Positions 22,167 to 35,439 of a stretch of 64,000 nucleotides of DNA are shown piece after piece. Source of the DNA: an uncultured Candidatus Saccharibacteria bacterium (lineage in GTDB: Bacteria > Patescibacteriota > Minisyncoccia > Minisyncoccales > GWA2-38-27); assembly GCA_964609075.1 (NCBI GenBank), contig CAZSQP010000002.1:72235-136234 (forward strand). Direction: 5' to 3'. The position numbers and the translations under genes were made by a program. The notes under the pieces were generated by a model. The model was given only the letters and a program-made list of their open reading frames with translations, made no database searches and was not told the DNA's origin. Position 1 is the stretch's first letter. The number at the start of each line of letters is the position of its first letter.

Positions 22167-22230
22167 TGTAATGGTAACACCCTAGATTTTGGCTCTAGTG
22201 ATCCTGGTTCGAGTCCAGGCCCGGCAGCCA
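22157..22230 (+). tRNA. tRNA-Gln (anticodon TTG), CCA encoded
   Basis: Hand-folded: acceptor TGCCGGG/CCCGGCA (U1-A72, typical of bacterial tRNA-Gln), D arm GTGT..ACAC, anticodon arm CTAGA-TTTTGGC-TCTAG, T arm CCTGG-TTCGAGT-CCAGG, discriminator G, CCA. Confidence 0.9.
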
Positions 22231-23865
22231 TCGTGCACGAATAGAGGCAATAGCCTCTATTTTTGCTTTATTTTGGGGCATTTTGGCTGGTTCTAACCCT
22301 ATGTATTCTTTTTCAAGAGCAGGATAGCCATTTCCTACCTCTGCAAACCACTCATTCGGTTCAATAGAGAGCTTTCCGTCTTTTATTATTGGCACTTTCC
22401 CTAATGCCATTGAAATTTCTTTCTTTAGTTCTAACCCACCCATCAAAAAGGCTTTTCTGGCGTAGGTGGCGAAGTTAAAGGTTCTTTCCGTTAGTTCCAG
22501 CCATCTTTCGGCTCGTGCTTCGGTTTCTCGCAGTTTTCCTTTCAACTGGCTAATTTTGGCTTGAAGGTCGTTTTTCTCTTTGATAAAAGTTTCGTCATCA
22601 ATCAACTGGCGGTATCTCATCTTGGTAAGTTCATCAAGTTCTTTTTGAGTTTCTACCAAAGTTTTGTGTTGCATTTCATAAACTTTAGTCCTGTCTTCAA
22701 TCTCTGTATCATTTTTCTTGTTTAGCCCTTCTAAAGCCCAGTTTAGAAATTCGGGGAGAATTGTGTATTTTTCAAGCTCTTTTTCAACCTGTAATTCCAG
22801 ATTGTCTTCTCTGACTACTTTTCTTTGCGTGCAATTTACTCGTCTTGTCCTTCTGGTGCAGTGATAATAGGTATATTCTTTAATTTCTTTCGTGCTTTTG
22901 ATAAGTTTCTTTTTTGTTTCGGCGGTATAAAGACAGCCGCACTCACCACACCTGATAAATCCAGTAAAAGCAAATTTGTGCGTTTTGGGTCTCGGTCTCC
23001 CTTTTCTGCCGAGAATTGTTTGCACTCGGTCATATTCCTCAAGAGTAATCATCGGCTCGTGCTTGCCTTCGTATTGCGTGCCGTAGTATTCAATAATCCC
23101 AGCATAAAAAACATTAGTGAAAATCTTGTAAATTCCGCTTCGGGATAGGGGCTTATCGCCATATCCCTTTTTCCTGAATTTTCTTGTTTTGAAACCCCAC
23201 TCATTATTGGCAATATCTAAAATCTTGGGCGGGGTGTAGTTGCCCGTAAGCATTAAATCCCACATTTTGCGGATAAGATTAAACCGCTCTGGGTCTTTGA
23301 TGATTGTTTTCTCTGCTTTGTCGTTTAGATAGCCGAGCGGGGCAAGATTGGGTTTCCATCCTTTTTGCAGTTTGCTTTCCGTGCCTCTTTTGACATTTTT
23401 TCTTAAATCCAAAATATACTGGTTAGCCATTCCGCTTTCAACATTAAAAAGTAGAACATTATCATCGGGAAGATACTGGCGGTCTATGGTTTGGATTGAC
23501 TTGAGTATTCCTTGCTGTAATAGCCAGCTTAACTTGCCGCTATCAATGGGGTTTCGGGTTAGTCGGTTTATTTGCCAGCATAAAATTCCGTCAGCCTCGC
23601 CGTCTTCAATCCGTTTTATCATTTCATCAAACAAAGGACGATTGTTTGGTTTCTTGGCTGTCTTTGCCTCTGTATAGGTTTTTTTAATATCCAAATTCAA
23701 ATCAGTGGCAAGCTGTTTTAGGCGATTGACTTGGTCGTCAATGGATTGCACTTGTCGGTCTTCGCTTTCCGATGATTTTCTGGCGTAAAGGAAGTATTTA
23801 ATTTTATTTACTTCTTGTCTCATATAACTCAAAGGGGCGGTCTGGTAGCCCAGTTGCTTTTCCAC
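22195..23865 (-). CDS. large serine recombinase (integrase)
   Basis: Resolvase-type N-terminus YARKSSESEDRQVQSIDDQ ... GILCWQINRLTRN, a recombinase domain, a zinc ribbon (CGECGCLYTAE...YYHC) and a coiled-coil. The ORF-track start is GTG; ATG 23823 (MRQEVNKIKYFLYARKSS) is an alternative. The last 11 codons are antisense tRNA-Gln sequence. Confidence 0.85.
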   Translation of the reverse strand: MEKQLGYQTAPLSYMRQEVNKIKYFLYARKSSESEDRQVQSIDDQVNRLKQLATDLNLDIKKTYTEAKTAKKPNNRPLFDEMIKRIEDGEADGILCWQINRLTRNPIDSGKLSWLLQQGILKSIQTIDRQYLPDDNVLLFNVESGMANQYILDLRKNVKRGTESKLQKGWKPNLAPLGYLNDKAEKTIIKDPERFNLIRKMWDLMLTGNYTPPKILDIANNEWGFKTRKFRKKGYGDKPLSRSGIYKIFTNVFYAGIIEYYGTQYEGKHEPMITLEEYDRVQTILGRKGRPRPKTHKFAFTGFIRCGECGCLYTAETKKKLIKSTKEIKEYTYYHCTRRTRRVNCTQRKVVREDNLELQVEKELEKYTILPEFLNWALEGLNKKNDTEIEDRTKVYEMQHKTLVETQKELDELTKMRYRQLIDDETFIKEKNDLQAKISQLKGKLRETEARAERWLELTERTFNFATYARKAFLMGGLELKKEISMALGKVPIIKDGKLSIEPNEWFAEVGNGYPALEKEYIGLEPAKMPQNKAKIEAIASIRARWLPGLDSNQDH

Positions 23866-23953
23866 GAGGGATTGGCTTCTGGCAAACCGCCCCTTAAAGG
23901 ACAGAAGCCGATAAAAAACTCGTGGATTTGTTGCAACTTTGGGCTACATCTAC

Positions 23954-23981
23954 ATTATAACGCTGTCTAAATTTTAAGCAA
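23954..23981 (-). promoter_or_regulatory. sigma70-type promoter for the recombinase gene
   Basis: The minus strand reads TTGCTT (23981-23976), 16 nt, TATAAT (23959-23954). Confidence 0.55.
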
Positions 23982-23998
23982 GCTCAATAAGGGGACAA

Positions 23999-24592
23999 CT
24001 ATTTTCCTAACATCATAACCATTTTTACCAAATCGTTATTTAATTTTTCATTCATTCTAATGACCCGTCTGTATTTTCTGGTCATTCTCCCATTATAGTA
24101 TTTTCTTTTTACTTCTTGTTCTGCTTTTTCTATGTCTGGGTAAGAAACTGAACAGCCTCTGAATTTACCACCTCTCAACTGGTCGGTGTAGCAAATATCG
24201 CCGCAGTGTCGGCAACCGAACCATTTGCCAATGCTGTAAATTACGCCAACCCGCCTGCCGCAGTATTGCCCATTCTTGGACAAAGGACATATAAACCAGT
24301 ATCTAACACCGCCGTAATTACAGGGAGTAGTCGTGAGGCTGACCTTATAATCCAAACTTTCTTTTTTACCGCTCCATTTGTCAGTGTGCGTGTATTGCAA
24401 TCTGATGTAATCGCCTTCGTCTCCGCCTATATTTACATTAAAGCCAATACTGCTTTCGTTGCCGCTTAATCCGTAAGTCCACTTGATACCGCCATATCTC
24501 CAACCACTCTCAAGATAGCCGTGCTTTTTGAGCCAAAAAATACTTAATCTATTGCTCCATTCTGCTTCTTGTTTTGCCATAATTTTTTTCAA
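23999..24592 (-). CDS. hypothetical Cys-rich (zinc-ribbon-like) protein
   Basis: 197 aa with CPLSKNGQYCGRRV...FGCRHCGDICY. The ORF-track start is TTG; ATG 24580 (MAKQEAEW) is an alternative. I cannot name a family. Confidence 0.6.
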   Translation of the reverse strand: MKKIMAKQEAEWSNRLSIFWLKKHGYLESGWRYGGIKWTYGLSGNESSIGFNVNIGGDEGDYIRLQYTHTDKWSGKKESLDYKVSLTTTPCNYGGVRYWFICPLSKNGQYCGRRVGVIYSIGKWFGCRHCGDICYTDQLRGGKFRGCSVSYPDIEKAEQEVKRKYYNGRMTRKYRRVIRMNEKLNNDLVKMVMMLGK

Positions 24593-24736
24593 AAACCCGC
24601 CGAAATCATTAGAGATTGTTAGAGGTTATTTTTGAAGTTGGGGATTAAATTTCCGCTTAAATAAAGGCAAATTTCTTATTTTATTGACCTTGAATAAAAC
24701 TCCATTTAATTCATTATTTTTGCGAAACGAACCCAG

Positions 24737-25273
24737 CTATTCTTTAACCCCAGAAACATCAACATCAATAGCCAGTGGAGCTGGTGGTTTTTCTCCCGCA
24801 CGGGCGGCTTGTATCCGTTGTAATTCGTGAAGGGCTTTATAAATACTTCTTTCAATAGATGTTTCATAGCGGAGTAATTTTTCCATATCATCATTAACAA
24901 TCATCGCTTTAATTTTCTTTTTCTTCTTTTGACTTTCTGGTTCTTCGTCTAAACCAAAACTAATTTCTTTATAATTTTTCCGCCACTCCATTGCGTTCTT
25001 TTCAACCTCTAAAGTCCTTCTAAGACGCCAGAAATTAGCGACAATTCTGTCAGCAAGCAACATTTCAAGCTCTCCTACTGGTTTCATTTCATTTCTTAGT
25101 CGTTTTCCAAGTTCAACAAGGCTCTGTTCGTCCTCTTTTTCCAATAATACCTCTTTACTCAACAGCCCGTGTTTTAAGGCATTGTATTTGCTTATTTCTT
25201 TGCCTTTATCTGTTTTTACCCCGCCGAGTTTGGCATTTTGGCGGTTAGCTTCTATTTGTTGTTGTGTCGTCAT
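24737..25273 (-). CDS. hypothetical protein
   Basis: 178 aa with N-terminal ANRQNAKLGGVKTDKGKEISKYNALKHGLLSK. It overlaps the upstream primase gene by 4 nt, so they form an operon. Confidence 0.6.
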   Translation of the reverse strand: MTTQQQIEANRQNAKLGGVKTDKGKEISKYNALKHGLLSKEVLLEKEDEQSLVELGKRLRNEMKPVGELEMLLADRIVANFWRLRRTLEVEKNAMEWRKNYKEISFGLDEEPESQKKKKKIKAMIVNDDMEKLLRYETSIERSIYKALHELQRIQAARAGEKPPAPLAIDVDVSGVKE

Positions 25274-27450
25274 AAGTTTGTATTATTTACCCCACCCCTC
25301 AACTCACTATTGTTTTTCTCTTTAGAGATAGTGAGCGAGGCGGTAGGATAGATTAACATTTTTCTTTTATCGCTTGGGTCTTGCTCTTGCATTATCAAGC
25401 CAGCAGTTTCCAGCATTGGAATGATTTGTTGCCGCAACTGCCAATCAGCGATAAATCGTCCATAAACCTGATAATGCTTTTGGATTATATCTTGACGGCT
25501 CAATCCCAACTCCCCAGTGATTTCTTCAAATCCTTCAGCCCTGTTTTTGTTTTTATCATCCCAAGCAGTTAAAATAACTTCCTGATAGAGATGGTAAATA
25601 TAGGGCGGCAGGTTAAGTTCTTGGCTTTCAGAGATTGCATTCCAAATTTTGAACGCTTCTTCAATGTCCTCATCGCTTGCCACAATAACCAAGCCGTCGT
25701 TTTTTCTGAACCACAGATTTAACAAAGCAAAAGATTTTATCAAAGAGATAAGCCGCCCGATGTCTCTTGAATGTCTGGGCTTGAGCATTTTGTTTTTCTT
25801 GAAAAATCTTTCTTCAATTTTCTCTGGCGAGCCGATTTTAATTTCTTTGACATTTTCTTGCTTAATTGCTCGTATCCTTTCTTTCAATAGTTTCCTTTCG
25901 GGGTTATCGTCCAGCCACTTTTGATAGGTGTCAGCGTCAGTTTCCTTTTTGATTTTCTCGTGGATTGCTTCCCTGATTTTTTCTTGGTTTGTCTCTGGGC
26001 TAAGCAATAAAAACCTTGTTGCTTCCTGTTCGTCAATTTTTAACCCAGCAGTGCAGAAAATTACTGACGGATAACCCCTTAACAAGACATTTTTAGTCTT
26101 TAATCCGAATTTCTGCGTTTTATCAGTGATTTTCAGTGATATTTCTTTTTTGTCGTGAGAAAGCAGAGGTCTTAGCCGTTCCAAGAGTTGAGTGTGCGGC
26201 TGGTCAAGAAAAATTAAAACCTTTCTGGACAAATCAACCAAATATCCTTTTTTCTCTTTTTGGTATTCTCCTATGTCGTGAAAAAAGGCGGTGGGAGAAC
26301 AATAGCCAATTTCAATAATGTCTTCTTCGGGGAACAGCCGAGCGATTTCGGTGGGGATATAAGACTTGCCAGTTGATGACGGAGCGTTGAAGCTGATATT
26401 AAACTGGGAGTTTTCTGTATAAGCAGAGAGTTCACATAAAAAAGTTATCAATTTATTTTCCTCGTCTTTTTTGATGGTCAGACCCAGTGTTTTGATGAGC
26501 TCTGATGAGGAGAGTGATTTGAATTGCGAGGTATCAATTTTTTCTGGATACTCTTTTGCGTATTTACCAAATAAATCATCGGGATTGCCGTTGAGTTTTA
26601 CAAAGTAATCGGTTATGTCGCCGCCTTCGCCGACTTCCTCTGGCAGTGTGATGATGTAGGTCTCATTTCCACCATTTTCCACCATTTTTGCCACTCGTTC
26701 AGCTCCTTTCTTGCCCGCCTCGTCATTGTCAAAGCAAATATAGATTTTGCTAACATTTGCTAACCTTTTGCACCACTCTTGCTTAAAGGTCATTGCTCCG
26801 TGCGTGGAAGTGATGGCTGGTATTCCTTTTGATAATAAAATCAATCTATCAAACTCGCCTTCGCAGGTTATAATTTTATTAGTGGCGGTTTTGAGCGTTT
26901 CCCAGCCATAGATTTGAGCTTCAATTCCTCTGGGGTAGGTTATTTTTTCATCGCCTTCATTCGGGTCTTGTCTTAGCTTAAAAAACACAAAATTCCCACC
27001 AATATCTTGAATGGGAATAGTAATCCACCATTTGCCGTAAAACTTGCCCCAACCGAGCTTAAAATCGCTTACAAGGGCGTCCGTAATGCCTCTGGCGTGC
27101 AGATATTGGCGAATATGGTCTGGAATGGCTTGATGACAGGTTTCTACCAGAGAAGTGTCAAATTTCGGATATTTTCGGATATTTTTCGTGGATTTTCGTG
27201 GATTTAGAGCAATGTCGTCTATGCTGTCGCCAAGATGTTCGGCAAGCGTTATGATGTTGCCTTTCTCCCCGCATTTCTTGCAATCGTATTGTCCAGTTTC
27301 AGTATCAAAGTAAAGATGTTTTTCATCGCTTCTGCTGTCGTCATCGCAGTTGTTAAATAGGCAACGGGTTATCAGTTCTCCATTTTGTTCTTTGAAAGGA
27401 ATGCCTTTGCGGGTTAGGTATTCTTTAATTGTAATGGTTTGTAATTCCAT
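25270..27450 (-). CDS. primase (zinc finger + TOPRIM) fused to a P-loop ATPase and a C-terminal winged-helix
   Basis: Cys cluster RCLFNNCDD...YDCKKCGEKG, TOPRIM ITCEGEFDRL / CFDNDEAGKKG, Walker A NAPSSTGKSY, Walker-B-like VLIFLDQPH, and a C-terminal wHTH-like region (LETAGLIMQEQDPSDKRKMLIYPT). Confidence 0.8.
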   Translation of the reverse strand: MELQTITIKEYLTRKGIPFKEQNGELITRCLFNNCDDDSRSDEKHLYFDTETGQYDCKKCGEKGNIITLAEHLGDSIDDIALNPRKSTKNIRKYPKFDTSLVETCHQAIPDHIRQYLHARGITDALVSDFKLGWGKFYGKWWITIPIQDIGGNFVFFKLRQDPNEGDEKITYPRGIEAQIYGWETLKTATNKIITCEGEFDRLILLSKGIPAITSTHGAMTFKQEWCKRLANVSKIYICFDNDEAGKKGAERVAKMVENGGNETYIITLPEEVGEGGDITDYFVKLNGNPDDLFGKYAKEYPEKIDTSQFKSLSSSELIKTLGLTIKKDEENKLITFLCELSAYTENSQFNISFNAPSSTGKSYIPTEIARLFPEEDIIEIGYCSPTAFFHDIGEYQKEKKGYLVDLSRKVLIFLDQPHTQLLERLRPLLSHDKKEISLKITDKTQKFGLKTKNVLLRGYPSVIFCTAGLKIDEQEATRFLLLSPETNQEKIREAIHEKIKKETDADTYQKWLDDNPERKLLKERIRAIKQENVKEIKIGSPEKIEERFFKKNKMLKPRHSRDIGRLISLIKSFALLNLWFRKNDGLVIVASDEDIEEAFKIWNAISESQELNLPPYIYHLYQEVILTAWDDKNKNRAEGFEEITGELGLSRQDIIQKHYQVYGRFIADWQLRQQIIPMLETAGLIMQEQDPSDKRKMLIYPTASLTISKEKNNSELRGGVNNTNL

Positions 27451-27472
27451 AGTTTTGTAATGTTAGGTTTTG

Positions 27473-27670
27473 TTAGGTTTTTAAGTCGCCAGTTTGTCGG
27501 CGGCGTTCCTGTAATTTTTGGTATTCGGCTTCGGTCATTGGTTTGTAAATCAACTCAACAAGTCGGATGAGTTTTGCACCCTGCTCATACGCTTCCTCTC
27601 GGCTTATTTCTTTGCCGAAGCGATTTTTGTAAAGCGTTTGGTATTTTTTTATTTGCTCATCCGACAACAT
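27473..27670 (-). CDS. hypothetical small protein
   Basis: 65-aa helical ORF, 22 nt upstream of the primase start, in the same operon. Confidence 0.5.
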   Translation of the reverse strand: MLSDEQIKKYQTLYKNRFGKEISREEAYEQGAKLIRLVELIYKPMTEAEYQKLQERRRQTGDLKT

Positions 27671-27674
27671 AGTT

Positions 27675-27968
27675 TTATTCGGAGTAAATTCGGTTCTTCA
27701 ACATTTTCACATTGTCAAAGAACGCCCGTGCTTTAACTTCCAAGCGGTCTGCCCAGTAGTCATCAACGACCTTTTCAATGCCGATTGCTCGGCGAAAGAT
27801 GAACTGGACTTTTCGGGGGTTGGCTTTGTCTAATGAGACAAGCTCAAAACCCGCACTTATCAATGCGGCTGAACACCCCAAATCAAAGGTGTAAAAATAG
27901 TTTGTTTGGTCATCTAAAGGAATGTATTGATATTCCTCTGGCTGACCCTTTTTTAATGGTTTGGTCAT
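27675..27968 (-). CDS. hypothetical protein (resembles the family I recall as DUF5659)
   Basis: 97 aa. TFDLGCSAALISAGFELVSLDKANPRKVQFIFRR ... KMLKNRIY. The family assignment is from memory only. Confidence 0.5.
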   Translation of the reverse strand: MTKPLKKGQPEEYQYIPLDDQTNYFYTFDLGCSAALISAGFELVSLDKANPRKVQFIFRRAIGIEKVVDDYWADRLEVKARAFFDNVKMLKNRIYSE

Positions 27969-28043
27969 ATAATTTTTGGTTAAGTTAATAATTAGTTTGC
28001 GACCCTCTACTAATAGATGGCGAATTTCACGCTTTGTCGTAGG

Positions 28044-28078
28044 AAAACAAAAAACTCCCCATTTTGTGAGGAGTTTTC
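28044..28078 (-). terminator. rho-independent terminator of the 696-aa gene
   Basis: The minus strand reads aaaactcctc acaaaat ggggagtttt followed by ttgtttt. Confidence 0.7.
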
Positions 28079-28114
28079 CGTAGGAGATTTATTAAAAGTT
28101 AAAGGTTAATTTCG

Positions 28115-30205
28115 CTACTGGTATTCGTCGTAGACTTCTGGGGTTTGTCTTTTATATTCTTCTTCTATTCCTAAATCATCTTTGTCTTTATTGGCATTAG
28201 CTTTTTCTTTTTTGTCTGGCGGCGGTATCAGAGTAATTTTAATTTTATAAGAATTGCCGCTTTTTTCTGTTGATGAGTGATATGGGTAAAAGGGGTCATA
28301 ATCAAGTAAGAAGTAGTTTTGAAGTGCTTTTGCCAGCAATTCTTTTTGTTTTTTATATTTATCTCTTGCTTGTGCGTCTTTGATTGTCAATTCACCATTG
28401 ACCTGTGCCAGCACTTTCATAAATGTCCACGCTTCGCTTGGATTTGGGTTTTTACCTCGCCCGACCATTCCCATTTCTTTGTAGTCAGCATTATGTTTGA
28501 ATTGTTTTACTTGGATAAAAACATTTTCGTCATCCTCAAATTTAATAGTGAAATTTTCCCATTTCGTTCCTGCTGGCAATTTATAAGGAAATTGATTTTT
28601 TCTTTCCTTTTTTTTGGTTTGAGCGATTGCTTTTAGTCCGTCTTGCAATCCTTCTACTTCCATTCTGCCGCCAACGATTTGGATTTTTTGTATCCGTTCG
28701 TGAGTATGGGATATTTTTGGGTCATATTCCCCAAGTAGTTTTTCGGTAGCTAATTTTTTAAGTGCGGGTATTTTAGATTTGACGAGCTTCGCTTTTATAA
28801 AAACATTGTCTTTGTCTGTCCATTCTTGTTTATCGTTGCTTAGCTCTTTTATGGTAAAAAATCCCTCTTTCTCTAATGCCAGCATTGTCCTTAAAACATT
28901 GATATTCGGGTCTCGTATCTCGTTAAATTTGATAACCAGTATTTCGTTTTCAAATTGATTGTAAAGGTTTGCGATATAGTTGAGCAATACTTCCCTTTGC
29001 TTTTTGTAGGCATAATAATTATGAGAGACGCCTCGCAAATAAGAGGGTGTCTCAAGGTGTTTGGTATCGGGATAAAATTCTTTTACCGCCTCAATCTTTT
29101 CTGCGTTGACTTTATTGGCGATAAATTCACTGATTTCTTCGTCAACATCTTTTTTTAATCTTTTTTCATCCAATATCTCAATATCAAAACCATCATCAGC
29201 TTCTACCTTATGCGGATTATTATCTAAATCTCTGATTAAGTTCCAATTAAAGGCAATTTCTTGATGAAAGCGAGGGTCGGTTTCAATTAAAATATCCTCT
29301 GGGGTAGTATTAGCACCGAAGAAAATAATATCGGTAATAAATAAATCCCAAAGAGAATAACAAATTTGTTCTATTGTGTTGTTGTTAAATGATAATTCGG
29401 TTATTGGGTGAGGTAGGTCGTCTCTCCAAGTTTCAACTAAAATTTTCTTTTTTAGATACAAATCTAAATCATTGTTTTGCCCAACCTCTTTACTTATTTT
29501 TTTGACTTTGTAATTTTTTAGAGTAAAGCCATCATATTTTAATAACTTATTAAATTTGTCTTCGTATGTTTTGGCGATTTCCTCGTTTCCATTGTGCATT
29601 AAAGGATGGCTTGCTTCTTCAATAATCTTAAAGAGGATTTCTTGATTTTTTGGATTTGGCGAGGTGGCAAGTGCTATAAAGACATCATAGACCATCCGCC
29701 ATTTTGTTTGAGGATATTCAATGAGTTTTTTATCAACTCCACAATCGGTTAAAAAATTTATAAGATTTGTTCCTGTTTCTAAATTACCGATTTCTCTGGC
29801 AATAAGTTCCAGAGACTTCGGCTTTATAACTGATTGTGAAATTTTGGTTTCTGGAACAGCATTTTTATTTTCCGAGTAGCTACTCCCGCTTTCGTAGAGA
29901 CGATAAAGTTCATCAAATTTGGATTGGCGAATTGCTAAGAGATACGCCGTTGGCGGTGCAAATAAATTATCATCCACAAAAAATCCAGTTGGTTCTAAGT
30001 CCAAAGCCTTCCATTCTTTTAATTTATTGAGTAGTTTCCTTTGAGCTTCAGCCGACGGCAAGTTATCATCGGTCTTTCTTGAGTATTTCGGTGGTTTTCT
30101 TAAAGTAAACTCTACCTTTTCTCCTTTAGGGGTGGAGAGCTGTTCTTTTCTTATTTCTTGCAAAATCCACCAAATCTCTTGATTAAATTTTTCCTCTGGG
30201 GTCAT
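28115..30205 (-). CDS. large orphan protein (696 aa), function unknown
   Basis: A long uninterrupted ORF with its own terminator. I could find no catalytic or nucleotide-binding motif by eye. The C-terminal tail is Lys- and acid-rich. Confidence 0.7.
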   Translation of the reverse strand: MTPEEKFNQEIWWILQEIRKEQLSTPKGEKVEFTLRKPPKYSRKTDDNLPSAEAQRKLLNKLKEWKALDLEPTGFFVDDNLFAPPTAYLLAIRQSKFDELYRLYESGSSYSENKNAVPETKISQSVIKPKSLELIAREIGNLETGTNLINFLTDCGVDKKLIEYPQTKWRMVYDVFIALATSPNPKNQEILFKIIEEASHPLMHNGNEEIAKTYEDKFNKLLKYDGFTLKNYKVKKISKEVGQNNDLDLYLKKKILVETWRDDLPHPITELSFNNNTIEQICYSLWDLFITDIIFFGANTTPEDILIETDPRFHQEIAFNWNLIRDLDNNPHKVEADDGFDIEILDEKRLKKDVDEEISEFIANKVNAEKIEAVKEFYPDTKHLETPSYLRGVSHNYYAYKKQREVLLNYIANLYNQFENEILVIKFNEIRDPNINVLRTMLALEKEGFFTIKELSNDKQEWTDKDNVFIKAKLVKSKIPALKKLATEKLLGEYDPKISHTHERIQKIQIVGGRMEVEGLQDGLKAIAQTKKKERKNQFPYKLPAGTKWENFTIKFEDDENVFIQVKQFKHNADYKEMGMVGRGKNPNPSEAWTFMKVLAQVNGELTIKDAQARDKYKKQKELLAKALQNYFLLDYDPFYPYHSSTEKSGNSYKIKITLIPPPDKKEKANANKDKDDLGIEEEYKRQTPEVYDEYQ

Positions 30206-30234
30206 AGTAATTTTTGGTAATAATCATTTAATGT

Positions 30235-30263
30235 TGCAGATATTCTTTCTCTGCTGTATAATA
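30235..30263 (+). promoter_or_regulatory. sigma70-type promoter for the HTH gene (near-leaderless transcript)
   Basis: TTGCAG (30235-30240), 17 nt, TATAAT (30258-30263). The ATG at 30274 lies only 10 nt after the -10 element. Confidence 0.6.
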
Positions 30264-30273
30264 ATGGTATCAA

Positions 30274-30495
30274 ATGTTAAGTAAAAAATCAATGACAGAA
30301 ACAGCGAAAAACAAAGAAGAAATACCAGAATTGCTCACCCTTCAAGAAGCGTGTGATATTTTGAAGTGCCACCCTAACACTTTACGCCAGTGGGACAGGA
30401 AAGGCATTTTGGTTGCTGTTCGTTTTGGCGAAAGAAAAGACAGGCGTTATCGCAAAGAGGATATTTTGAAGTTATTAAACCAAAAGAAAAGATGA
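30274..30495 (+). CDS. excisionase/MerR-type HTH DNA-binding protein (candidate recombination directionality factor or regulator)
   Basis: LLTLQEACDILKCHPNTLRQWDRKGILVAVRFGERKDRRYRKEDI matches the HTH_17/excisionase pattern. Confidence 0.7.
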   Translation: MLSKKSMTETAKNKEEIPELLTLQEACDILKCHPNTLRQWDRKGILVAVRFGERKDRRYRKEDILKLLNQKKR

Positions 30496-30517
30496 TATAA
30501 ACCATTAACAATTTAAT

Positions 30518-30699
30518 TGCCTAACCCTCGTTGAGGTATGGCATTAAAAAACCTACCACAGGATAGAGAGCTCGTCGTCAGAGCACCTGTGGTAGGTCAT
30601 ATCCCGAAAGGGGTATGGGTGGAGCAATCCATCGCTGGCGGCGAGCTTTGTGGTTTTACCGCCAGAGGCATAAATTAAATAACAAAACCTACCACAGGT
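30518..30699 (+). promoter_or_regulatory. hairpin-dense structured leader upstream of mod (candidate RNA switch, or ori/iteron region)
   Basis: Perfect 12-bp hairpin acctaccacagg (30551-30562) / cctgtggtaggt (30586-30597). GAAA-loop hairpin at 30598-30617, GCAA-loop hairpin at 30618-30633, and ctggcgg/ccgccag at 30635-30665. A second direct copy of aaaacctaccacagg lies at 30684-30698, ending 1 nt before the ATG. Confidence 0.55.
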
Positions 30700-32562
30700 A
30701 TGCCAAAAAAATTACAATTACAATCAATTGAAAAAGCCAAAGGCAGACCAATGCTTCAATGGGCAGGTAAAAAGCCTTTGGACAAAATAGAATACTATCC
30801 AGCCCAAGAAAAAGAAGTTTATGGCGACAAAAACTCCAAAGATTTTAATAAACTTTTCTGGGGCGACAACCTTCAAGTTTTAGCCCATCTCTTAAAAGAA
30901 TATAGGGGCGAGATTGATTTAATTTATATTGACCCGCCTTTTGATAGCAAAGCCGAGTATGTGAAAAAAGTAAAAATCAGGGGTGAAAAAATAGAAGGCG
31001 AACAGCATAGTTTGTTAGAAGAAAAACAATATACTGACATCTGGGAGAAAGATGAGTATTTGCAGTTTATGTATGAGCGGCTTTTAATTATGCGTGAACT
31101 TCTTGCTGATACGGGGAGTATTTATTTACATTGCGATTGGCACAGGGGGGCGTTTTTAAGGATGATAATGGATGAAGTTTTTGGCGAGGGAAATTTCAAA
31201 AATGAAATTGTTTGGCATTATATGACTTATCAGGGGCAGGTTGAAAAATACTTCCCTCGTAAGCACGACCATATTCTTTTTTATACCAAAACTAAAGAGT
31301 ATGACTTTAAGTTGTTAAAAGATAAGGAATTTGAAAAGAATATAGACTATAAACGCTGGCATAGATATTTGATAAATGGAAATGAAATCAGGGGTAATAA
31401 CTATCCAAAAGATGACACTCGTTTTGATGTATTTATAAATAAATGGCGTGAAAAAAATAAAAGAGAGCCGACTAAAGATGATGTAATTTATCGTCTGGAA
31501 GGATACACAATTGATAGTGTCTGGAACATAAAAGCCGAAGACCCCAAAAGTTTAACAAGAACGGGCTATCCAACCCAAAAGCCAGCAGAGCTTATAGAAA
31601 GAATTATTGAAGCGTCATCAAAAGAGGGCGATATTGTAGCTGATTTTTTTGTTGGCTCTGGCACTACTCCAGCCGTTGCTCAAAAACTCGGCAGACGCTG
31701 GATTGCCTGCGATATTAACTTGGGAGCAATACAAACTACCGCCAAACGGCTTAATCAAATCATTCAAAAGCAATCAAAAGAAAAAGCTAAAGATTTTAAG
31801 GGCATACACGCTTTCAAAATCTACAATGTCAACGATTACGATATTTTCAAAAATGAACTGGAAGCAAAAGAAATCGTAATGGAGATGTATGGTGTAGAGC
31901 CGATAAAGCGAAGTTATTTTGACGGCGTTCTGGATAACAACTTTGTAAAAGTAATGCCGATGAACCGAGTATTGAATAAGTTGGATATTAAGACGGCGTT
32001 GAAAAATGTTGAAGACAAGATTGACACTTTCTCGGTTAAGAAAAAATCAAAATCTGGCGAGCCAGTTTATGAGGAAGGCGTTTTGATTATTTGTTCTGGA
32101 ATGGAGCTTGATGTGTCAGATTATTTGAAGAAAGAAAACAAAACAGGCGTGAAAGTAGAAATCCGAGATATTTTAACTGACAAGAAAAACCTCATTTTCA
32201 AAAAGAAGCCCGAAGCGAAGATTGAAGTGAAAGCTAAAGACAAGAAGCTGTCAGTTGAACTCAAAGAGTTTTATTCACCAATTTTGATGAGAAAGTTAGA
32301 AATTGAAAACGCCAGAACACTTAAAAAAGAGTATCAAGCCAAAGTAAAAGATTTTAAGCAAATCATAGATAGCGTGGCTATTGATATTGATTATGACGGC
32401 AAACTCTTTAATGCCGAAATTACTGATTTGCCGAGTAAAAAAGAAATAATCAAAGGCAAATACGATTGGGATTACAAGCAAAAGGGCAAATATGCCGTAG
32501 CTGTAAAAATCGTTGATGTGCTTGGTGAGGAATACTTTGAAACCTTTGAGGTATCAGCATAA
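30700..32562 (+). CDS. mod: type III restriction-modification Mod subunit (beta-class N6-A/N4-C DNA methyltransferase)
   Basis: Motif IV DLIYIDPPFDS lies N-terminal to motif I DIVADFFVGSGTTPAVAQKLGRRWIACDIN (beta-class order). A Res-type helicase-nuclease gene follows immediately. Confidence 0.85.
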   Translation: MPKKLQLQSIEKAKGRPMLQWAGKKPLDKIEYYPAQEKEVYGDKNSKDFNKLFWGDNLQVLAHLLKEYRGEIDLIYIDPPFDSKAEYVKKVKIRGEKIEGEQHSLLEEKQYTDIWEKDEYLQFMYERLLIMRELLADTGSIYLHCDWHRGAFLRMIMDEVFGEGNFKNEIVWHYMTYQGQVEKYFPRKHDHILFYTKTKEYDFKLLKDKEFEKNIDYKRWHRYLINGNEIRGNNYPKDDTRFDVFINKWREKNKREPTKDDVIYRLEGYTIDSVWNIKAEDPKSLTRTGYPTQKPAELIERIIEASSKEGDIVADFFVGSGTTPAVAQKLGRRWIACDINLGAIQTTAKRLNQIIQKQSKEKAKDFKGIHAFKIYNVNDYDIFKNELEAKEIVMEMYGVEPIKRSYFDGVLDNNFVKVMPMNRVLNKLDIKTALKNVEDKIDTFSVKKKSKSGEPVYEEGVLIICSGMELDVSDYLKKENKTGVKVEIRDILTDKKNLIFKKKPEAKIEVKAKDKKLSVELKEFYSPILMRKLEIENARTLKKEYQAKVKDFKQIIDSVAIDIDYDGKLFNAEITDLPSKKEIIKGKYDWDYKQKGKYAVAVKIVDVLGEEYFETFEVSA

Positions 32563-32566
32563 CTTT

Positions 32567-35098
32567 ATGGAAAATCCTTTTTTACAACATATCCAGCAGA
32601 AAGTCGCTCTCTGGCGAGACGGCAATTATAAGGGTGCAGAAAAAGAAACGCTGAATATCTTGACCCACATCAAACGAGTGGGCTTTTTGCATAAACCACA
32701 GGTAGAAGCTCTGGAAACTTATATTTACTTAAAAGAGGTTGTCGGCAACAAGTCGTCTTTGGAAGTGTTTAGGTCGCTTTTTGAAAATAAAAAAGATATG
32801 CTTCTTGGTTTAGGCATTTCTAAAGAACAAGCATTTGATTTAATGGACAACGAAGAAAAGATTGCCGAATTGATGGAAGACCGCTTTGGCGTTTCCGATT
32901 ACCCTAATCAAGTTTACGCTCTCACAATGGGAGCGGGCAAAACGATTTTAATGGCAGTGATGATGTTGTATGATTTTGTCCTTTCGTTTTATCACCCAGA
33001 AGACAAGCGATTTGCTAAAAACGCTTTGGTGTTTGCTCCCGACACGACAATTATTGAGAGCTTGAAAGAAATAAAAACCTTTGATTATACACGGGTAATC
33101 CCGAAAGAATATCAAAACATTCTTTTGAACATTAAATATCATTATCTTGAAGATGTCGCCACGCCTTTGTCGCCAATCGGCAATTACAATGTTATTATTT
33201 CAAACTCCCAGAAAATCATCTTAAAGACCCAGCGAAATCACAATAATACTCAACGATTATTTTCCGATTGGCAGTATATGACAAAGCGAGAGATAGAAAA
33301 CAGGCGTTTGCAAGCCATAAGGCAATTAACAGATTTGGTCGTTTTTGTAGATGAAGCCCATCATTCTTACGGCAAGACGCTGGAAGGCACGCTAAAGAAA
33401 ACCCGCCAGACCATTAACTATATCCATCAAGAGGGCAAGACGCCTGTCGTTGGCGTGATAAATCTTACTGGCACGCCGTATGTAAATAATAAAATGATTG
33501 CTGATGTTGTTTGTCATTTTGGATTAAAACAGGGCATTGAAAAAGGCATTTTGAAGCAGGTAAGATTTTTTGAATATAGCAAAGTGAGAACAGAAAAGTT
33601 TATTGAAGATGTGGTAGATAAGTTCTGGAGTGAATACGGAGAAAATCGGCTTGAAGGACGCTTGCCAAAGATAGCTTTTTACTCTGCCAGCATTGATGAT
33701 TTACAGAAGGATTTGAGACCAAAACTGGAAAAGATTTTAGCCCAGCGAAAAATCGCTCTTGATAAGATTTTAGAATATCACACCGAAGCCGAAGAAAATA
33801 AAGATGAGTTTATTGTCGTAGACACAATTGATAGCAGGAAGCAGTTTATTCTGCTCGTTGGTAAAGGAACAGAGGGTTGGAATTGTCGGTCGCTTGTTGC
33901 CTGTGCTTTATACAGGAGACCGAGAAGTGCTATTTTTGTTTTGCAATCTTCAACTCGTTGTTTGCGGAGCATTGGCGACAATTCAACGCTGGCTTCAATT
34001 TTCCTTTCCGAAGAAAACTATCGCATTTTAGACAAAGAACTTAGAAATAACTTTGCCACTGATATTGAAGAATTGTCAGCCCAAGACCAGAAATCTATTG
34101 AGCACACTCTTAAAATAGAAAAAAAGAAGAAATTAAAAATCAGAAAGACCCTAAAGGAAATCTTGGCGGTTCAAAATCAAGATTTAGATAAAATTAAAAT
34201 TGATTTCAAAACATTCAATCCAGAGAATTATTTATCTTTTATTGCCGAAGGCGGGATATTTTTGGATGAAAGCAAAGAAGCTGGCTATAAAGAAGCGAGA
34301 ATAAAGAAAGAAGTGAGAGAGATGGGCGATTTTACTTTTTACGAGATTATTGAAATTATCAACCGCTATACTCATTTGTCTTGTTTGGCTATTGAGCAGA
34401 TTTTGGAAAACAATGAATTATCAAAAGAAAACATAATCAAAAGAGTGAATAAAAATCCAGCATTTTTATTGTTTATTACGCAGAACATTTTAGCTGGGGC
34501 TTATCAATATCAGGAGAAGACCGAAACCATTGAAGAAGAACTGGAGCTGGCGAAACTATATCCCTTCAAAATCAGCATTGAACAGGGCAGAAATATCCTC
34601 GTGATTTACAAAGAGCAAATGGAGAAGGCATACGGCAAGAGCCGTTTAGGATTTCACATTAACCCTTATAATTTTGATAGCTCTGACGAAAAAGACCTGT
34701 TTAAGTATTTGCGGGATGTGTTGGATAAAGACGAGGCAATTGTTGATGTTTATTTTACAGGGGGAGCAACCGACCCTACCCACAATGATTTCTATTTTGA
34801 GTATTACAGCCCAGAGAATAAACGGATTGCCAGATATTTCCCAGATTTTTTGGTTGAGACGACAAAAGGCAGGTTTTTAGTTGTTGAGGTGAAGTCCAAC
34901 CGAGAAAAAGAGGGCTACGAGAAAAACAAGCAGGAATACAATGGCAAAGTAGAAAACCTTTTTAATGAGGTTTTTGCCAAAGAAATCGGTTTTAAGGAGT
35001 TCCAGCGAGCAAACAAAAATTTTGAGTATCGCATTATCTTTGACGCCTCACTTCAAAAACGCCAGCAGGAATTATTGGAAAGTATAAGAAAAATTTGA
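32567..35098 (+). CDS. res: type III restriction-modification Res subunit (SF2 helicase + PD-(D/E)xK nuclease)
   Basis: Walker A ALTMGAGKTILMA, DEAH box VVFVDEAHHSYG, motif III LTGTP, and C-terminal nuclease PDFLVET...FLVVEVKS. I prefer ATG 32567 (MENPFLQH), 5 nt after the mod stop, to the ORF-track start 32513. Confidence 0.85.
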   Translation: MENPFLQHIQQKVALWRDGNYKGAEKETLNILTHIKRVGFLHKPQVEALETYIYLKEVVGNKSSLEVFRSLFENKKDMLLGLGISKEQAFDLMDNEEKIAELMEDRFGVSDYPNQVYALTMGAGKTILMAVMMLYDFVLSFYHPEDKRFAKNALVFAPDTTIIESLKEIKTFDYTRVIPKEYQNILLNIKYHYLEDVATPLSPIGNYNVIISNSQKIILKTQRNHNNTQRLFSDWQYMTKREIENRRLQAIRQLTDLVVFVDEAHHSYGKTLEGTLKKTRQTINYIHQEGKTPVVGVINLTGTPYVNNKMIADVVCHFGLKQGIEKGILKQVRFFEYSKVRTEKFIEDVVDKFWSEYGENRLEGRLPKIAFYSASIDDLQKDLRPKLEKILAQRKIALDKILEYHTEAEENKDEFIVVDTIDSRKQFILLVGKGTEGWNCRSLVACALYRRPRSAIFVLQSSTRCLRSIGDNSTLASIFLSEENYRILDKELRNNFATDIEELSAQDQKSIEHTLKIEKKKKLKIRKTLKEILAVQNQDLDKIKIDFKTFNPENYLSFIAEGGIFLDESKEAGYKEARIKKEVREMGDFTFYEIIEIINRYTHLSCLAIEQILENNELSKENIIKRVNKNPAFLLFITQNILAGAYQYQEKTETIEEELELAKLYPFKISIEQGRNILVIYKEQMEKAYGKSRLGFHINPYNFDSSDEKDLFKYLRDVLDKDEAIVDVYFTGGATDPTHNDFYFEYYSPENKRIARYFPDFLVETTKGRFLVVEVKSNREKEGYEKNKQEYNGKVENLFNEVFAKEIGFKEFQRANKNFEYRIIFDASLQKRQQELLESIRKI

Positions 35099-35110
35099 TA
35101 TAATTTTATT

Positions 35111-35262
35111 GGAGTAGTGAGAGTTGGTGTTCATCGGCTTTTGCCGATGACAAGATTGTGTAATAAGTCCGCCATCCGCCTTGTGCGGTGAATTTGCCCG
35201 AAAGGGTGAAGGGTGCGGTGAAAAGCAATAGTGGCTCACGGGCATACCAAGAGTGCTACTCC
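35111..35262 (+). ncRNA. 152-nt closed multi-helix RNA-like element in the res 3' UTR (class unknown; RNase P RNA-like helix order)
   Basis: Terminal helix ggagtag (35111-17) / ctactcc (35256-62). Second helix ttggtgt (35124-30) / ataccaa (35244-50). Hairpin tcatcggc-tttt-gccgatga (35131-50). GAAA-loop hairpin at 35196-35207. Possible long-range gtccg (35167-71) / cgggc (35239-43). A terminator follows directly. Confidence 0.5.
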
Positions 35263-35268
35263 AACAAA

Positions 35269-35294
35269 AAGCTCCCGTTTCTGGGAGTTTTTTG
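35269..35294 (+). terminator. rho-independent terminator of the mod-res unit
   Basis: agctccc gtttct gggagtt followed by ttttg. Confidence 0.7.
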
Positions 35295-35439
35295 TTATAA
35301 TAAATAGTGAGTAGCAGGGTAGGGTAAGTTTATGCGTTAGTATGCATTAGCGTATCCTTTCAAATCTGGGATGTAAATATACTCATTTTGTCGCTGGATA
35401 ATGGTTCTAACATTGTCCACGATGGTCAGCAAAAAAGAT

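What the first reader, a model, noticed from the sequence alone, without database searches (positions are those of the whole stretch)
35111..35294. 152-nt closed multi-helix element in the res 3' UTR with RNase P RNA-like helix order and sequence blocks
A segment that folds into a closed structure lies directly after the res stop codon and before the terminator (35269-35294). Its helices are: the terminal helix ggagtag/ctactcc (35111-17 / 35256-62); a second helix ttggtgt/ataccaa (35124-30 / 35244-50); the hairpin tcatcggc-tttt-gccgatga (35131-50); a GAAA-tetraloop hairpin (35196-35207); and a possible long-range pairing gtccg/cgggc (35167-71 / 35239-43) that abuts the 3' strand of the second helix. 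The order is P1, P2, a P3 hairpin, then the 5' strand containing AAGUCCG, and finally a 3' strand immediately preceding the 3' strand of P2. This mirrors the P1-P4 core topology of bacterial RNase P RNA. The block agggtgaagggtgcggtga (35204-35222) is nearly identical to the E. coli M1 RNA segment as I recall it (AGGGUGAAAGGGUGCGGUAAG), including a GUGCG...CUCAC helix that parallels GUGCG...CGCAC. At 152 nt it is far too small to be a normal rnpB, and it lacks a P15-like region. It could therefore be an RNase P-derived fragment or mimic, a new structured RNA carried by the element, or a 3' UTR stabiliser. It also shares short blocks (cccgaaaggg, gggtg, agcaat, tggc, in the same order) with the 5' leader element at 30603-30640, so related motifs bracket the R-M operon.
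Basis: partly seen in the sequence, partly recalled or inferred. Interest (0 to 1): 0.75.

Follow-up and report, generated by a model that had tools for sequence, protein, structure and literature searches.

The report
New structured small RNA of Patescibacteria
The folded segment after the restriction gene is real, but it is a separate small RNA gene with its own promoter and terminator. It belongs to a widespread, previously uncatalogued family in candidate-phyla-radiation bacteria, and it is not an RNase P relic or a 3' UTR.

Summary
Window 35111-35294 (+) is a self-contained small-RNA gene. It has an extended -10 promoter (TGATATAAT, 35096-35104), a 152-nt multi-helix core and an intrinsic terminator.

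All but one of the hits are homologues. Two genome loci, from Uhrbacteria and Paceibacterota MAGs, also carry it.

The proposed gtccg/cgggc and GUGCG/CUCAC pairings fail, as does an RNase P P4-like pairing.

No Rfam 15 family matches, RNase P included. The 23/26 match to real E. coli M1 RNA is genuine in this copy. It uses a variable helix strand and fades in other family members.

The gene is not tied to res. Seventeen of 19 homologous R-M loci lack it, and in other loci it sits directly beside tRNA genes. Here a roughly 13-kb serine-recombinase/R-M island lies between tRNA-Gln and the RNA.

Function is unknown. The most likely reading is a stable, trans-acting structured RNA. It is a new RNA family of moderately high interest.

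The parts
35075..35104 (+). Promoter of the RNA gene: -35-like TTGGAA, an 18-nt spacer, and the extended -10 TGATATAAT, whose TGA is the res stop codon.
   Evidence: The consensus scan scores it 10/12 with TG present. Across the family, TG sits at -15/-14 and TATAAT at -12..-7 relative to the first G of P1 in 93 of 101 distinct upstream sequences.
35111..35294 (+). Predicted transcript of the small RNA: 152-nt structured core plus intrinsic terminator.
   Evidence: Fold z = -7.0. Covariance model R1 scores it 154 bits. More than 100 homologues were found.
35111..35118 (+). P1, 5' strand (GGAGUAGU). It pairs with 35255-35262.
   Evidence: Eight pairs are 88-97% paired in 78 sequences, with GC 37 <-> AU 26 at one pair and GC 61 <-> AU 6 at another.
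35255..35262 (+). P1, 3' strand (GCUACUCC).
35119..35123 (+). GA-rich internal loop, 5' side (GAGAG), lying opposite GAG 35251-35253.
   Evidence: The nucleotides are nearly invariant. That this is a purine-purine (loop-E-like) motif is my inference.
35124..35130 (+). P2, 5' strand (UUGGUGU). It pairs with 35244-35250.
   Evidence: Four of 7 pairs show changes on both sides and 95.9% of cells are paired. RNAalifold recovers it independently.
35244..35250 (+). P2, 3' strand (AUACCAA).
35131..35150 (+). P3 hairpin (UCAUCGGC-UUUU-GCCGAUGA).
   Evidence: Seven of 8 pairs show changes on both sides.
35155..35159 (+). Helix a, 5' strand (AUUGU). It pairs with 35225-35229 (GCAAU).
   Evidence: UA<->CG 52/35 and GC<->AU 44/16. 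It is among the top mutual-information pairs and RNAalifold recovers it.
35225..35229 (+). Helix a, 3' strand.
35169..35172 (+). Helix b, 5' strand (CCGC). It pairs with GCGG 35215-35218. This helix is tentative.
   Evidence: 97.8% of cells are paired. There is only one double-compensatory case, CGGU/GCCG in L027 and its near-identical relative L036, where I read the same pair by eye. RNAalifold does not predict it.
35174..35193 (+). P5 hairpin (AUCCGCC-UUGUGC-GGUGAAU). Its register is ambiguous.
   Evidence: It is invariant because it was the search pattern, so covariation cannot test it. RNAalifold prefers a CCGC/GCGG register.
35196..35207 (+). P6 hairpin with a GAAA tetraloop.
   Evidence: CG<->UA 46/23 and CG<->AU 63/9.
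35234..35243 (+). P7 hairpin: GGCU-CACG-GGC in the window, GGYU-UACG-GRY in the family.
Evidence: CG<->UA 59/32 with no exceptions, the top mutual-information pair.
35263..35296 (+). Intrinsic terminator: A-tract, CUCCC/GGGAG stem, U-tract.
   Evidence: Read from the sequence. It is conserved after P1 in the full-length homologues. The scan lists the stem on the - strand.

Best explanation
**What it is (shown)**

Window 35111-35294 (+) is an autonomous gene for a highly structured small RNA of about 185 nt. It belongs to a family found in Patescibacteria/CPR (Parcubacteria-type) bacteria that is absent from Rfam 15.

Transcription starts at the first G of P1, from an extended -10 promoter that overlaps the res stop codon. 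It ends at an intrinsic terminator.

**Fold**
- An 8-bp closing helix, P1.
- A GA-rich internal loop.
- P2.
- A four-way junction that carries:
  - hairpin P3;
  - a composite arm made of helix a, a conserved A-rich internal loop, tentative helix b, and the two hairpins P5 and P6 (P6 has a GNRA loop);
  - a UNCG-like hairpin, P7.

Other family members insert one or two extra modules between P2 and the 3' strand of P1, giving size classes of about 186, 225, 250 and 280 nt.

**Why it sits next to res (shown and inferred)**

The adjacency is positional, not functional. The gene recurs beside tRNA genes and at recombination hot spots. In this window a roughly 13-kb island lies between tRNA-Gln and the RNA. 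The island carries a serine recombinase, a primase, LOOT and a type III R-M system.

**How it probably works (inferred)**

It acts in trans as a stable RNA whose conserved three-dimensional shape is recognised by a conserved partner, either a protein or tRNA. It would then serve as an RNP scaffold or possibly a catalyst. It is unlikely to be a cis-regulatory or 3' UTR element.
For: **Family and structure**
- Model R1 scores them at about 125-165 bits where the RNA is intact and not cut by a contig end, with one full copy in every locus searched and a second, cut copy in L085.
- On 91 sequences, 92.9% of cells are paired against 86.6% in shuffles. There are 296 double-sided changes against 108 expected (0 of 500 shuffles reach this). 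All slid registers score far lower.
- RNAalifold independently recovers P2, P3, helix a, P6 and P7. P1 covaries.
- Abundant G-U pairs fit only the + strand.

**Independent transcription unit**
- The promoter is positionally conserved.
- The terminator is conserved.

**Not a known family**
- No Rfam hit at E <= 10 on the window copy or at E <= 1 on nine loci carrying longer family members.

**Independent of res**
- Only 3 of 20 sources with this R-M family carry the RNA.
- L002 has the res stop followed directly by the downstream motif, with no RNA.
- The genes upstream and downstream are variable.

**tRNA and hot-spot context**
- L061: tRNA-Asp, 32 nt, then the RNA, then two genes of which the second is a NUDIX gene.
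- L034: tRNA-Met and tRNA-Asp, 1.3 kb, then the RNA and NUDIX.
- L096: tRNA-Met and tRNA-Asp, a 10.6-kb island, then an RNA of the same subclade.
- L029, L064 and L113: the RNA followed by tRNA-Phe and tRNA-Arg.
- L081 and L091: tRNA-Ser followed by the RNA.
- Homologous islands sit at tRNA-Gln, -Asn, -Ser and -Asp.
- The window's flanks are ordinary chromosome: ClpB, PBP, DnaB and DnaX on one side, fmt and aminoacyl-tRNA synthetases on the other.
- There were no hits in 2.9 million viral contigs.
Against: - No expression data exist. The promoter and terminator are consensus matches plus conservation.
- The partner and the activity are unknown. 'Trans-acting RNP or ribozyme' rests on analogy with other complex, modular RNAs.
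- About one fifth of the nearest upstream genes are R-M components.
- In one subclade the RNA abuts the stop codon of different cargo genes by 5-8 nt. It is followed there by a conserved 28-nt motif and a further conserved stretch of sequence after it. A functional link to islands or R-M systems is therefore not excluded.
- All metagenome homologues were recruited with one 20-nt pattern. P5 cannot be tested as a result, and the family's breadth and genome-wide copy number are unknown.
Confidence: 0.62

Rival explanations
1. The RNA is a functional component of the mobile island or the R-M cargo module. For example, it could be an RNA that regulates the R-M operon, island maintenance or integration, kept at the cargo end next to the island's right boundary.
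For: - In five loci the same architecture recurs: tRNA, serine recombinase, primase, c17, c11, then LOOT with R-M cargo, then the RNA.
- R-M families head the list of nearest upstream proteins: ResIII 7, Methylase_S 6, N6_Mtase 5, N6_N4_Mtase 5 and Eco57I 5 of 143.
- The RNA promoter overlaps the stop codon of res or hsdS at 5-8 nt.
- A conserved 28-nt motif, and in several loci a further conserved stretch after it, follow the RNA or precede its promoter.
- In L075, L120 and L065 a serine recombinase gene lies just downstream.
Against: - The RNA occurs directly beside tRNA genes with no island (L061, L091, L081, L115, L029, L064).
- The L061 / L034 / L096 series shows insertions of 0, 1.3 and 10.6 kb between the same tRNA-Asp and the same RNA subclade.
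- Seventeen of 19 homologous R-M loci lack it, and L002 lacks it at the identical junction.
- There is no complementarity to LOOT or to the target tRNAs.
- It is absent from viral contigs.
Confidence: 0.15
2. The RNA is a cis-acting element: a 3' UTR stabiliser or terminator module of the upstream operon, or a riboswitch-like leader whose terminator controls the downstream gene.
For: - No terminator separates res from the element, so res transcripts must run into it.
- The structure ends in an intrinsic terminator.
- In many loci a same-strand gene starts 8-77 nt downstream.
Against: - It has its own positionally conserved promoter.
- The upstream gene is on the opposite strand or is a tRNA in roughly 40% of loci, and the downstream gene is not conserved and is often convergent, as it is here.
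- A 150-300-nt conserved multi-junction fold is far more than a stabiliser needs.
Confidence: 0.08
3. The RNA is an RNase P RNA derivative, a miniaturised RNase P, or a mimic.
For: - The order is P1, P2, then a hairpin, and AAGUCCG follows P3.
- There is a 23/26 match to E. coli M1 173-197.
- GGCUUA lies before the 3' strand of P2.
- The gene often sits among tRNA genes.
Against: - No RNase P model scores at E <= 10.
- The P4-like pairing AAGUC/GGCUU competes with hairpin P7, which covaries perfectly, and has 10-20 non-pairs at two of its positions.
- The M1-like block sits in a different structural context. Its GCGG pairs upstream, and GUGCG/CUCAC is 0-2% paired at three of five positions.
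- The block's similarity to M1 drops to z 0.3-2.4 in other members.
- There is no P15/L15 and no S-domain.
Confidence: 0.04
4. It is not an RNA at all. It could be a short protein-coding ORF (for example 35072-35245 on the - strand) or a DNA-level site such as an att site or a single-stranded DNA structure.
For: - A 57-aa ORF overlaps it on the - strand.
- Seventy-five of 91 homologues keep a stop-free stretch of at least 45 codons in some frame.
- It lies at recombination-prone junctions.
Against: - Homologues differ by 1-2-nt indels at several places (lengths 146-151). These would shift any reading frame.
- Substitutions are compensatory within helices and rich in G-U pairs on the + strand only.
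- A promoter and a terminator frame it.
Confidence: 0.03

Closest known systems
Orphan complex-fold bacterial ncRNAs found by comparative genomics (for example the raiA RNA motif, ROOL and other Weinberg/Breaker-type motifs; recalled from my own knowledge)
   Same: It is a stand-alone gene of 150-300 nt. It has a multi-junction fold with strong covariation in the helices, near-invariant junction nucleotides and optional peripheral modules. Its function is unknown.
   Different: There is no sequence or structure match to any of the 4227 Rfam 15 families. Its distribution is in Patescibacteria/CPR metagenomes. It recurs beside tRNA genes and at island junctions.
Bacterial RNase P RNA (Rfam RF00010 / RF00011)
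   Same: A closing helix, a second helix and a hairpin occur in the same order. Short sequence blocks are shared (AAGUCCG; AAGGGUGAAGGGUGCGGU in this copy). The gene lies close to tRNA genes.
   Different: No covariance-model score. No P4 supported by covariation. No P15/L15 and no S-domain. The M1-like block sits in a different structural context and is not conserved across the family.
tRNA and tmRNA genes as landmarks for genomic-island integration (established knowledge)
   Same: It is a small stable-RNA gene found at the edge of integrated islands that encode a site-specific recombinase. Tandem or neighbouring islands occur, as do chimeras and truncated copies.
   Different: Here the islands appear to use the neighbouring tRNA gene. 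Whether the RNA gene itself is ever the attachment site is not shown. It has no tRNA-like T arm, and neither ARAGORN nor Rfam calls it a tRNA.
LOOT RNA (Rfam RF03000), found at 30518-30633 in this window
   Same: It lies in the same R-M module. Both contain a GAAA hairpin followed by GGGUG.
   Different: The architecture is different and the element gets no LOOT score. The similarity is seen in only 4 of 7 loci, and there is no complementarity. LOOT travels with the R-M cargo, whereas this RNA does not.

Membership tests
Bacterial RNase P RNA (RF00010/RF00011 and other RNase P models) | A significant score to an RNase P covariance model. | tested here: not met
   cmscan of 35000-35400 lists no RNase P family at E <= 10. 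None appears at E <= 1 in nine loci carrying longer family members.
Bacterial RNase P RNA (RF00010/RF00011 and other RNase P models) | A P4 long-range helix (AAGUCC... with ...GGCUU) maintained by covariation. | tested here: not met
   The 3' partner nucleotides form the local hairpin P7, with CG<->UA 59/32 and no exceptions. The P4-like pairing changes only GC->GU and has 20 and 7 non-pairs at two positions. L027 breaks it while compensating helix b.
Bacterial RNase P RNA (RF00010/RF00011 and other RNase P models) | The CR-II/III block in its J11/12-P12 context (a GUGCG/CGCAC helix). | tested here: not met
   The sequence block matches M1 173-197 at 23/26 in the window. The proposed GUGCG/CUCAC helix is 0-2% paired at three of five positions. 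The similarity to M1 is z 0.3-2.4 in other members.
Bacterial RNase P RNA (RF00010/RF00011 and other RNase P models) | A specificity domain and a P15/L15 CCA-binding loop; length of at least about 270 nt in bacteria. | tested here: not met
   The core is 152 nt and every helix is accounted for. Nothing corresponds to P7-P14 or P15. The extra modules of the long forms sit between P2 and the 3' strand of P1.
Bacterial RNase P RNA (RF00010/RF00011 and other RNase P models) | Cleavage of pre-tRNA 5' leaders. | not testable with these tools
   This needs a biochemical assay.
Any Rfam 15 family | A score at or near a family's gathering threshold. | tested here: not met
   The best matches on the region are terminator-driven (STnc230 at 26 bits against 50; rimP at 25 bits against 47). 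None covers the core.
LOOT RNA (RF03000) | A match to the LOOT covariance model. | tested here: not met
   LOOT is found at 30518-30633 with 85.7 bits. It is not found at 35111-35294.
Independent bacterial sRNA gene (own promoter and intrinsic terminator) | A promoter conserved at a fixed distance from the 5' end of the structure. | tested here: met
   TG sits at -15/-14 (78-79%) and TATAAT at -12..-7 (61-91% per position). Ninety-three of 101 distinct upstream sequences have a -10 box and 61 have the TG extension. The window site scores 10/12.
Independent bacterial sRNA gene (own promoter and intrinsic terminator) | An intrinsic terminator directly after the structure. | tested here: met
   A GC stem plus a U-tract is conserved after P1 in the short and long forms. 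In the window it is at 35263-35296.
Independent bacterial sRNA gene (own promoter and intrinsic terminator) | A discrete transcript in vivo. | not testable with these tools
   No transcriptome data were available.
3' UTR element of the res / R-M operon | Constant association with the upstream gene and no promoter of its own. | tested here: not met
   Seventeen of 19 homologous res loci lack it. L002 lacks it at the same junction. Upstream neighbours are variable and roughly 40% are on the opposite strand or are tRNAs. It has its own promoter.
tRNA / tRNA-like gene | A cloverleaf with a T arm, recognised by ARAGORN or Rfam tRNA. | tested here: not met
   ARAGORN and Rfam call only tRNA-Glu and tRNA-Gln in the window. 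The 5' end resembles a tRNA acceptor and D-loop sequence, and chimeras with tRNAs exist (L030, L071). No T arm is present.

The most novel reading that the evidence does not exclude
The RNA could be a Patescibacteria-specific housekeeping RNA of a new class, a ribozyme or RNP core that acts on or binds tRNA.

The hints are its position among tRNA genes, transcription that starts exactly at P1, and a near-invariant U-N-A-A-A-A stretch that I read as T-loop-like together with an unpaired UGG next to P7. None of these hints has been tested. If true, it would fill a gap in the reduced RNA-processing machinery of CPR bacteria.
Probability: 0.1. Interest if true: 0.9.

Novelty: categorically new. 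Interest (0 to 1): 0.62.

Why it matters
CPR/Patescibacteria make up a large share of bacterial diversity. They have tiny genomes, and very little is known about their RNA biology.

A conserved, complex-fold RNA with many covarying helices, near-invariant junctions and modular size variants is the signature of an RNA whose three-dimensional shape does work. This one was found in more than 100 loci, drawn from dozens of groundwater, sediment and peat assemblies by their record names.

It gives a ready-made alignment and model for a new RNA class. It also marks a recombination hot spot where restriction-modification islands accumulate next to tRNA genes.

Finally, it corrects an attractive but wrong RNase P reading.

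Tried and rejected
1. **RNase P homology.** No covariance-model hit. The P4-like and GUGCG/CUCAC pairings fail on covariation. The M1 similarity is specific to this copy.
2. **rRNA mimicry.** By eye I saw 16S 685-700-like GUAGCGGUGAAA and 23S 5'-like CGGUGGAUGCCC and GAGGCGAACC. Local alignments to real E. coli 16S, 23S and 5S are at chance, z -0.4 to 3.3.
3. **SRP Alu or domain IV, 6S, tmRNA, 5S, T-box, Y RNA.** None has Rfam support. I also judged the architecture incompatible, from memory of those families.
4. **Guide RNA for the island's recombinase.** The RNA shares no identical or complementary stretch of 9 nt or more with the adjacent tRNA in any of four islands, apart from one 9-nt identity in L119 that lies in the sequence after the tRNA.
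5. **Antisense partner of LOOT.** No complementarity.
6. **Direct repeats marking island ends in the window.** None convincing.
7. **Close DNA relatives in phage, plasmid or E. coli collections.** Only chance fragments, or nothing. No hits in viral contigs.
8. **Literature.** No paper in the held library describes this RNA or an unusual RNase P RNA in Patescibacteria. The supplement of the paper that defined LOOT is not held.
9. **Coding potential.** Stop-free stretches are common, but frame-shifting indels rule out an ORF.
Full report
**1. The observation**

- The + strand of 35105-35300 folds to -80.5 kcal/mol, against -52.2 +/- 4.1 for 200 dinucleotide shuffles (z = -7.0).
- The - strand folds less well, at -63.6 kcal/mol.
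- Upstream lie a 73-aa HTH_17/MerR protein (30274-30495), a LOOT RNA (RF03000, 85.7 bits, 30518-30633), a type III mod gene (30700-32562) and res (32567-35098).
- Downstream a subtilase gene converges on the element.

**2. Homologues**

Searches of phage and plasmid collections gave only chance fragments. A search of the E. coli collection with part of the element found nothing.

The res protein has thousands of relatives in Parcubacteria-type CPR bacteria, the closest at 65-93% identity. I fetched 19 genome loci around res homologues. BLASTN found the element in only two, a Uhrbacteria MAG (L007) and a Paceibacterota MAG (L019). In both it lies after two or three extra genes, not directly after res.

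The three copies share the block CATCCGCC-N2-3-GTGCGGTGRATT.
- That pattern found nothing in 2.9 million viral contigs.
- All but one hit (L023) align over the whole element.
- The record names point to several dozen separate assemblies, many of them groundwater, sediment and peat by name. This is my count and my reading of the names.

A covariance model built from 91 distinct cores (R1) scores most intact members at about 125-165 bits. It finds one full copy in every locus searched, with a second, cut copy in L085.

**3. Structure**

On the 91-sequence alignment A2 I tested a model of seven helices.
- 92.9% of cells are paired, against 86.6% in shuffles.
- There are 296 double-sided changes against 108 expected, and no shuffle out of 500 reaches this.
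- Every slid register collapses to 36-49% paired.

Individual helices:

| Helix | Window coordinates | Key evidence |
|---|---|---|
| P2 | 35124-30 / 35244-50 | UA<->CG 70/20; AU<->GC 52/38 |
| P3 hairpin | 35131-50 | 7 of 8 pairs change on both sides |
| Helix a | 35155-59 / 35225-29 | UA<->CG 52/35 |
| P6 GNRA hairpin | 35196-207 | CG<->UA 46/23 |
| P7 hairpin | 35234-43 | CG<->UA 59/32 with no exception; top mutual-information pair |

RNAalifold, run without my structure, recovers P2, P3, helix a, P6 and P7.

P1 (35111-18 / 35255-62) was tested separately on 78 full-length sequences. Its eight pairs are 88-97% paired, with GC<->AU 37/26 at one position.

Two parts are tentative.
- P5 is invariant because it was my search pattern, and its register is ambiguous.
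- Helix b (CCGC/GCGG) rests on a single double-compensatory lineage (L027/L036).

G-U pairs are frequent and fit only the + strand.

Longer relatives carry one or two extra modules between P2 and the 3' strand of P1, giving size classes of about 186, 225, 250 and 280 nt. By eye the module stems also show compensatory changes. One junction has the GAA/AGUA signature of a loop-E or sarcin-ricin motif. That last point is my inference.

**4. It is a gene, not a 3' UTR**

Aligned on the first G of P1, 101 distinct upstream sequences show TG at -15/-14 (78-79%) and TATAAT at -12..-7.
- Ninety-three have a -10 box and 61 have the TG extension.
- In the window this is TTGGAA-18-TATAAT with TG. The TGA of the res stop codon forms part of the extended -10.
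- A GC stem plus U-tract follows P1 throughout the family.

**5. Known families**

Rfam 15 gives nothing for the core at E <= 10. The weak hits are terminator look-alikes. It also gives nothing at E <= 1 for nine loci carrying longer family members.

The RNase P reading fails each defining test.
- No model scores.
- GUGCG/CUCAC is 0-2% paired at three of its five positions.

I fetched the real E. coli rnpB. Half of that block is the variable 3' strand of P6. Other family members score z 0.3-2.4, and the mean score of the 91 members is 21.8 against a null of 17.4.

Similarities I noticed to 16S, 23S and 5S rRNA are at chance.

**6. Context**

The flanking genes are highly variable. R-M families head the list among the two nearest upstream ORFs.

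Five loci, including the window, share one architecture: a tRNA, then leftward serine recombinase, c39/c100, primase, c17 and c11, then a rightward LOOT and R-M cargo, then the RNA. The tRNA differs between loci:
- Gln in the window;
- Asn in L090;
- Ser in L119;
- Asp in L096.

The RNA also sits directly beside tRNA genes where there is no island.
- L061: tRNA-Asp, 32 nt, then the RNA, then two genes of which the second is a NUDIX gene.
- L081 and L091: tRNA-Ser, then the RNA.
- L115: tRNA-Arg, -Arg and -Pro, then the RNA.
- L029, L064 and L113: the RNA, then tRNA-Phe and tRNA-Arg.

Within one RNA subclade, the gap between tRNA-Asp and the RNA is 32 nt (L061), 1.3 kb (L034) or a 10.6-kb island (L096). 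This series is the strongest evidence that islands insert next to a pre-existing RNA gene.

Conversely, L002 carries an 81% identical res. It runs from the res stop straight into the same downstream 28-nt motif and the conserved sequence after it, with no RNA. The RNA gene is therefore a discrete presence/absence unit.

The window's outer flanks are ordinary chromosome: ClpB, PBP, DnaB and DnaX before tRNA-Gln, and fmt and aminoacyl-tRNA synthetases after.

**7. Tests of specific mechanisms**

- There is no complementarity between the RNA and the adjacent tRNAs or LOOT.
- Coding is excluded by frame-shifting indels, despite frequent stop-free stretches.
- Literature searches found no description of this RNA.

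**8. Verdict**

The finding is a genuine, new family of structured small RNAs.

Function remains unknown. I commit to a stable, trans-acting RNA recognised through its tertiary fold, at about 0.6. An island or R-M-linked role is the main rival, at about 0.15.

What limits confidence:
- there are no expression data;
- homologues were recruited with a single pattern;
- I could not scan whole genomes for copy number or for co-occurrence with canonical rnpB.

Noticed in passing
window 30518-30633 (LOOT) and 30543-30562 / 30679-30698: A LOOT RNA (RF03000) sits between the HTH gene and mod, and it recurs upstream of the R-M cargo in many related loci. The 5' strand of its long hairpin (AAAACCUACCACAGG) is repeated immediately before the mod AUG. 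The hairpin's 3' strand could therefore pair instead with the translation start region, which looks like a cis-regulatory switch.
   Followed up: partly
window 22157-35098: A roughly 13-kb island lies between tRNA-Gln and the RNA. It carries a large serine recombinase (22195-23865, -, whose ORF end overlaps the tRNA 3' end), a Toprim primase (25270-27450, -), c17, a 696-aa protein with no Pfam hit (28115-30205, -), HTH, LOOT, mod and res. Homologous islands sit at tRNA-Asn, -Ser and -Asp in L090, L119 and L096.
   Followed up: partly
window 35301-35330; also L007, L021, L024, L035, L056, L066, L068, L069, L101, L105, L113, L123, L136 and others: A 28-nt motif, AAYAATAGTGAGTAGCGGGGTGGGGTAA, always has the same orientation as the RNA. 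It lies either about 10 nt after the RNA's terminator or fused to its promoter. Some loci have two copies flanking a short cassette, and in L123 they flank the RNA itself. The motif resembles the RNA's own 5' end (GAGUAGCG..GG.GGUA). In the window it is preceded by a second TGTTATAAT box at 35293-35301.
   Followed up: partly
window 35360-35424; L002 6524-6635, L004 9021-9101, L018 8272-8340, L090, L113 11147-11214, L114, L075, L068, L069: A conserved non-coding stretch of about 65-110 nt (AAATCWGGGATGTAAATATACTCATTTTGTC...ATGGTTCTAACATTGTCCAC) follows the motif. It recurs at island and cassette ends, including R-M loci that lack the RNA, and directly after tRNA-Arg in L113. It could be an attachment site, a promoter region or another RNA.
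   Followed up: partly
L071 297-510 (-), L030 1540-1733 (+), L115 1200-1266: There are chimeras between tRNA genes and the RNA. In L071 a full tRNA-Arg replaces the promoter and the 5' strand of P1. In L030 a tRNA 5' half is joined at the shared AGUUGGUA. In L115 a tRNA-Arg 3' fragment sits just upstream of the RNA promoter.
   Followed up: no
L040/L131, L047/L050, L117: These are truncated or internally deleted copies of the RNA. The 5' part and promoter are kept and the rest is replaced by unrelated sequence. They look like decayed copies broken at different points.
   Followed up: no
L075, L120, L065: A serine recombinase gene on the opposite strand lies just downstream of the RNA, in the position it occupies next to tRNA genes elsewhere. 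This could reflect tandem islands, or use of the RNA locus as an integration site.
   Followed up: no
L009 8019-8205 (-), L013 7804-8011 (-): Group I introns (RF00028, 67-76 bits) lie downstream of res homologues in two MAGs labelled as Gammaproteobacteria.
   Followed up: no
A2 alignment, window positions 35163 and 35214: Core positions 57 and 108 covary as AU 46 / UA 27. They cross helix b. This is either a tertiary pair or a signal of shared descent between two clades.
   Followed up: no
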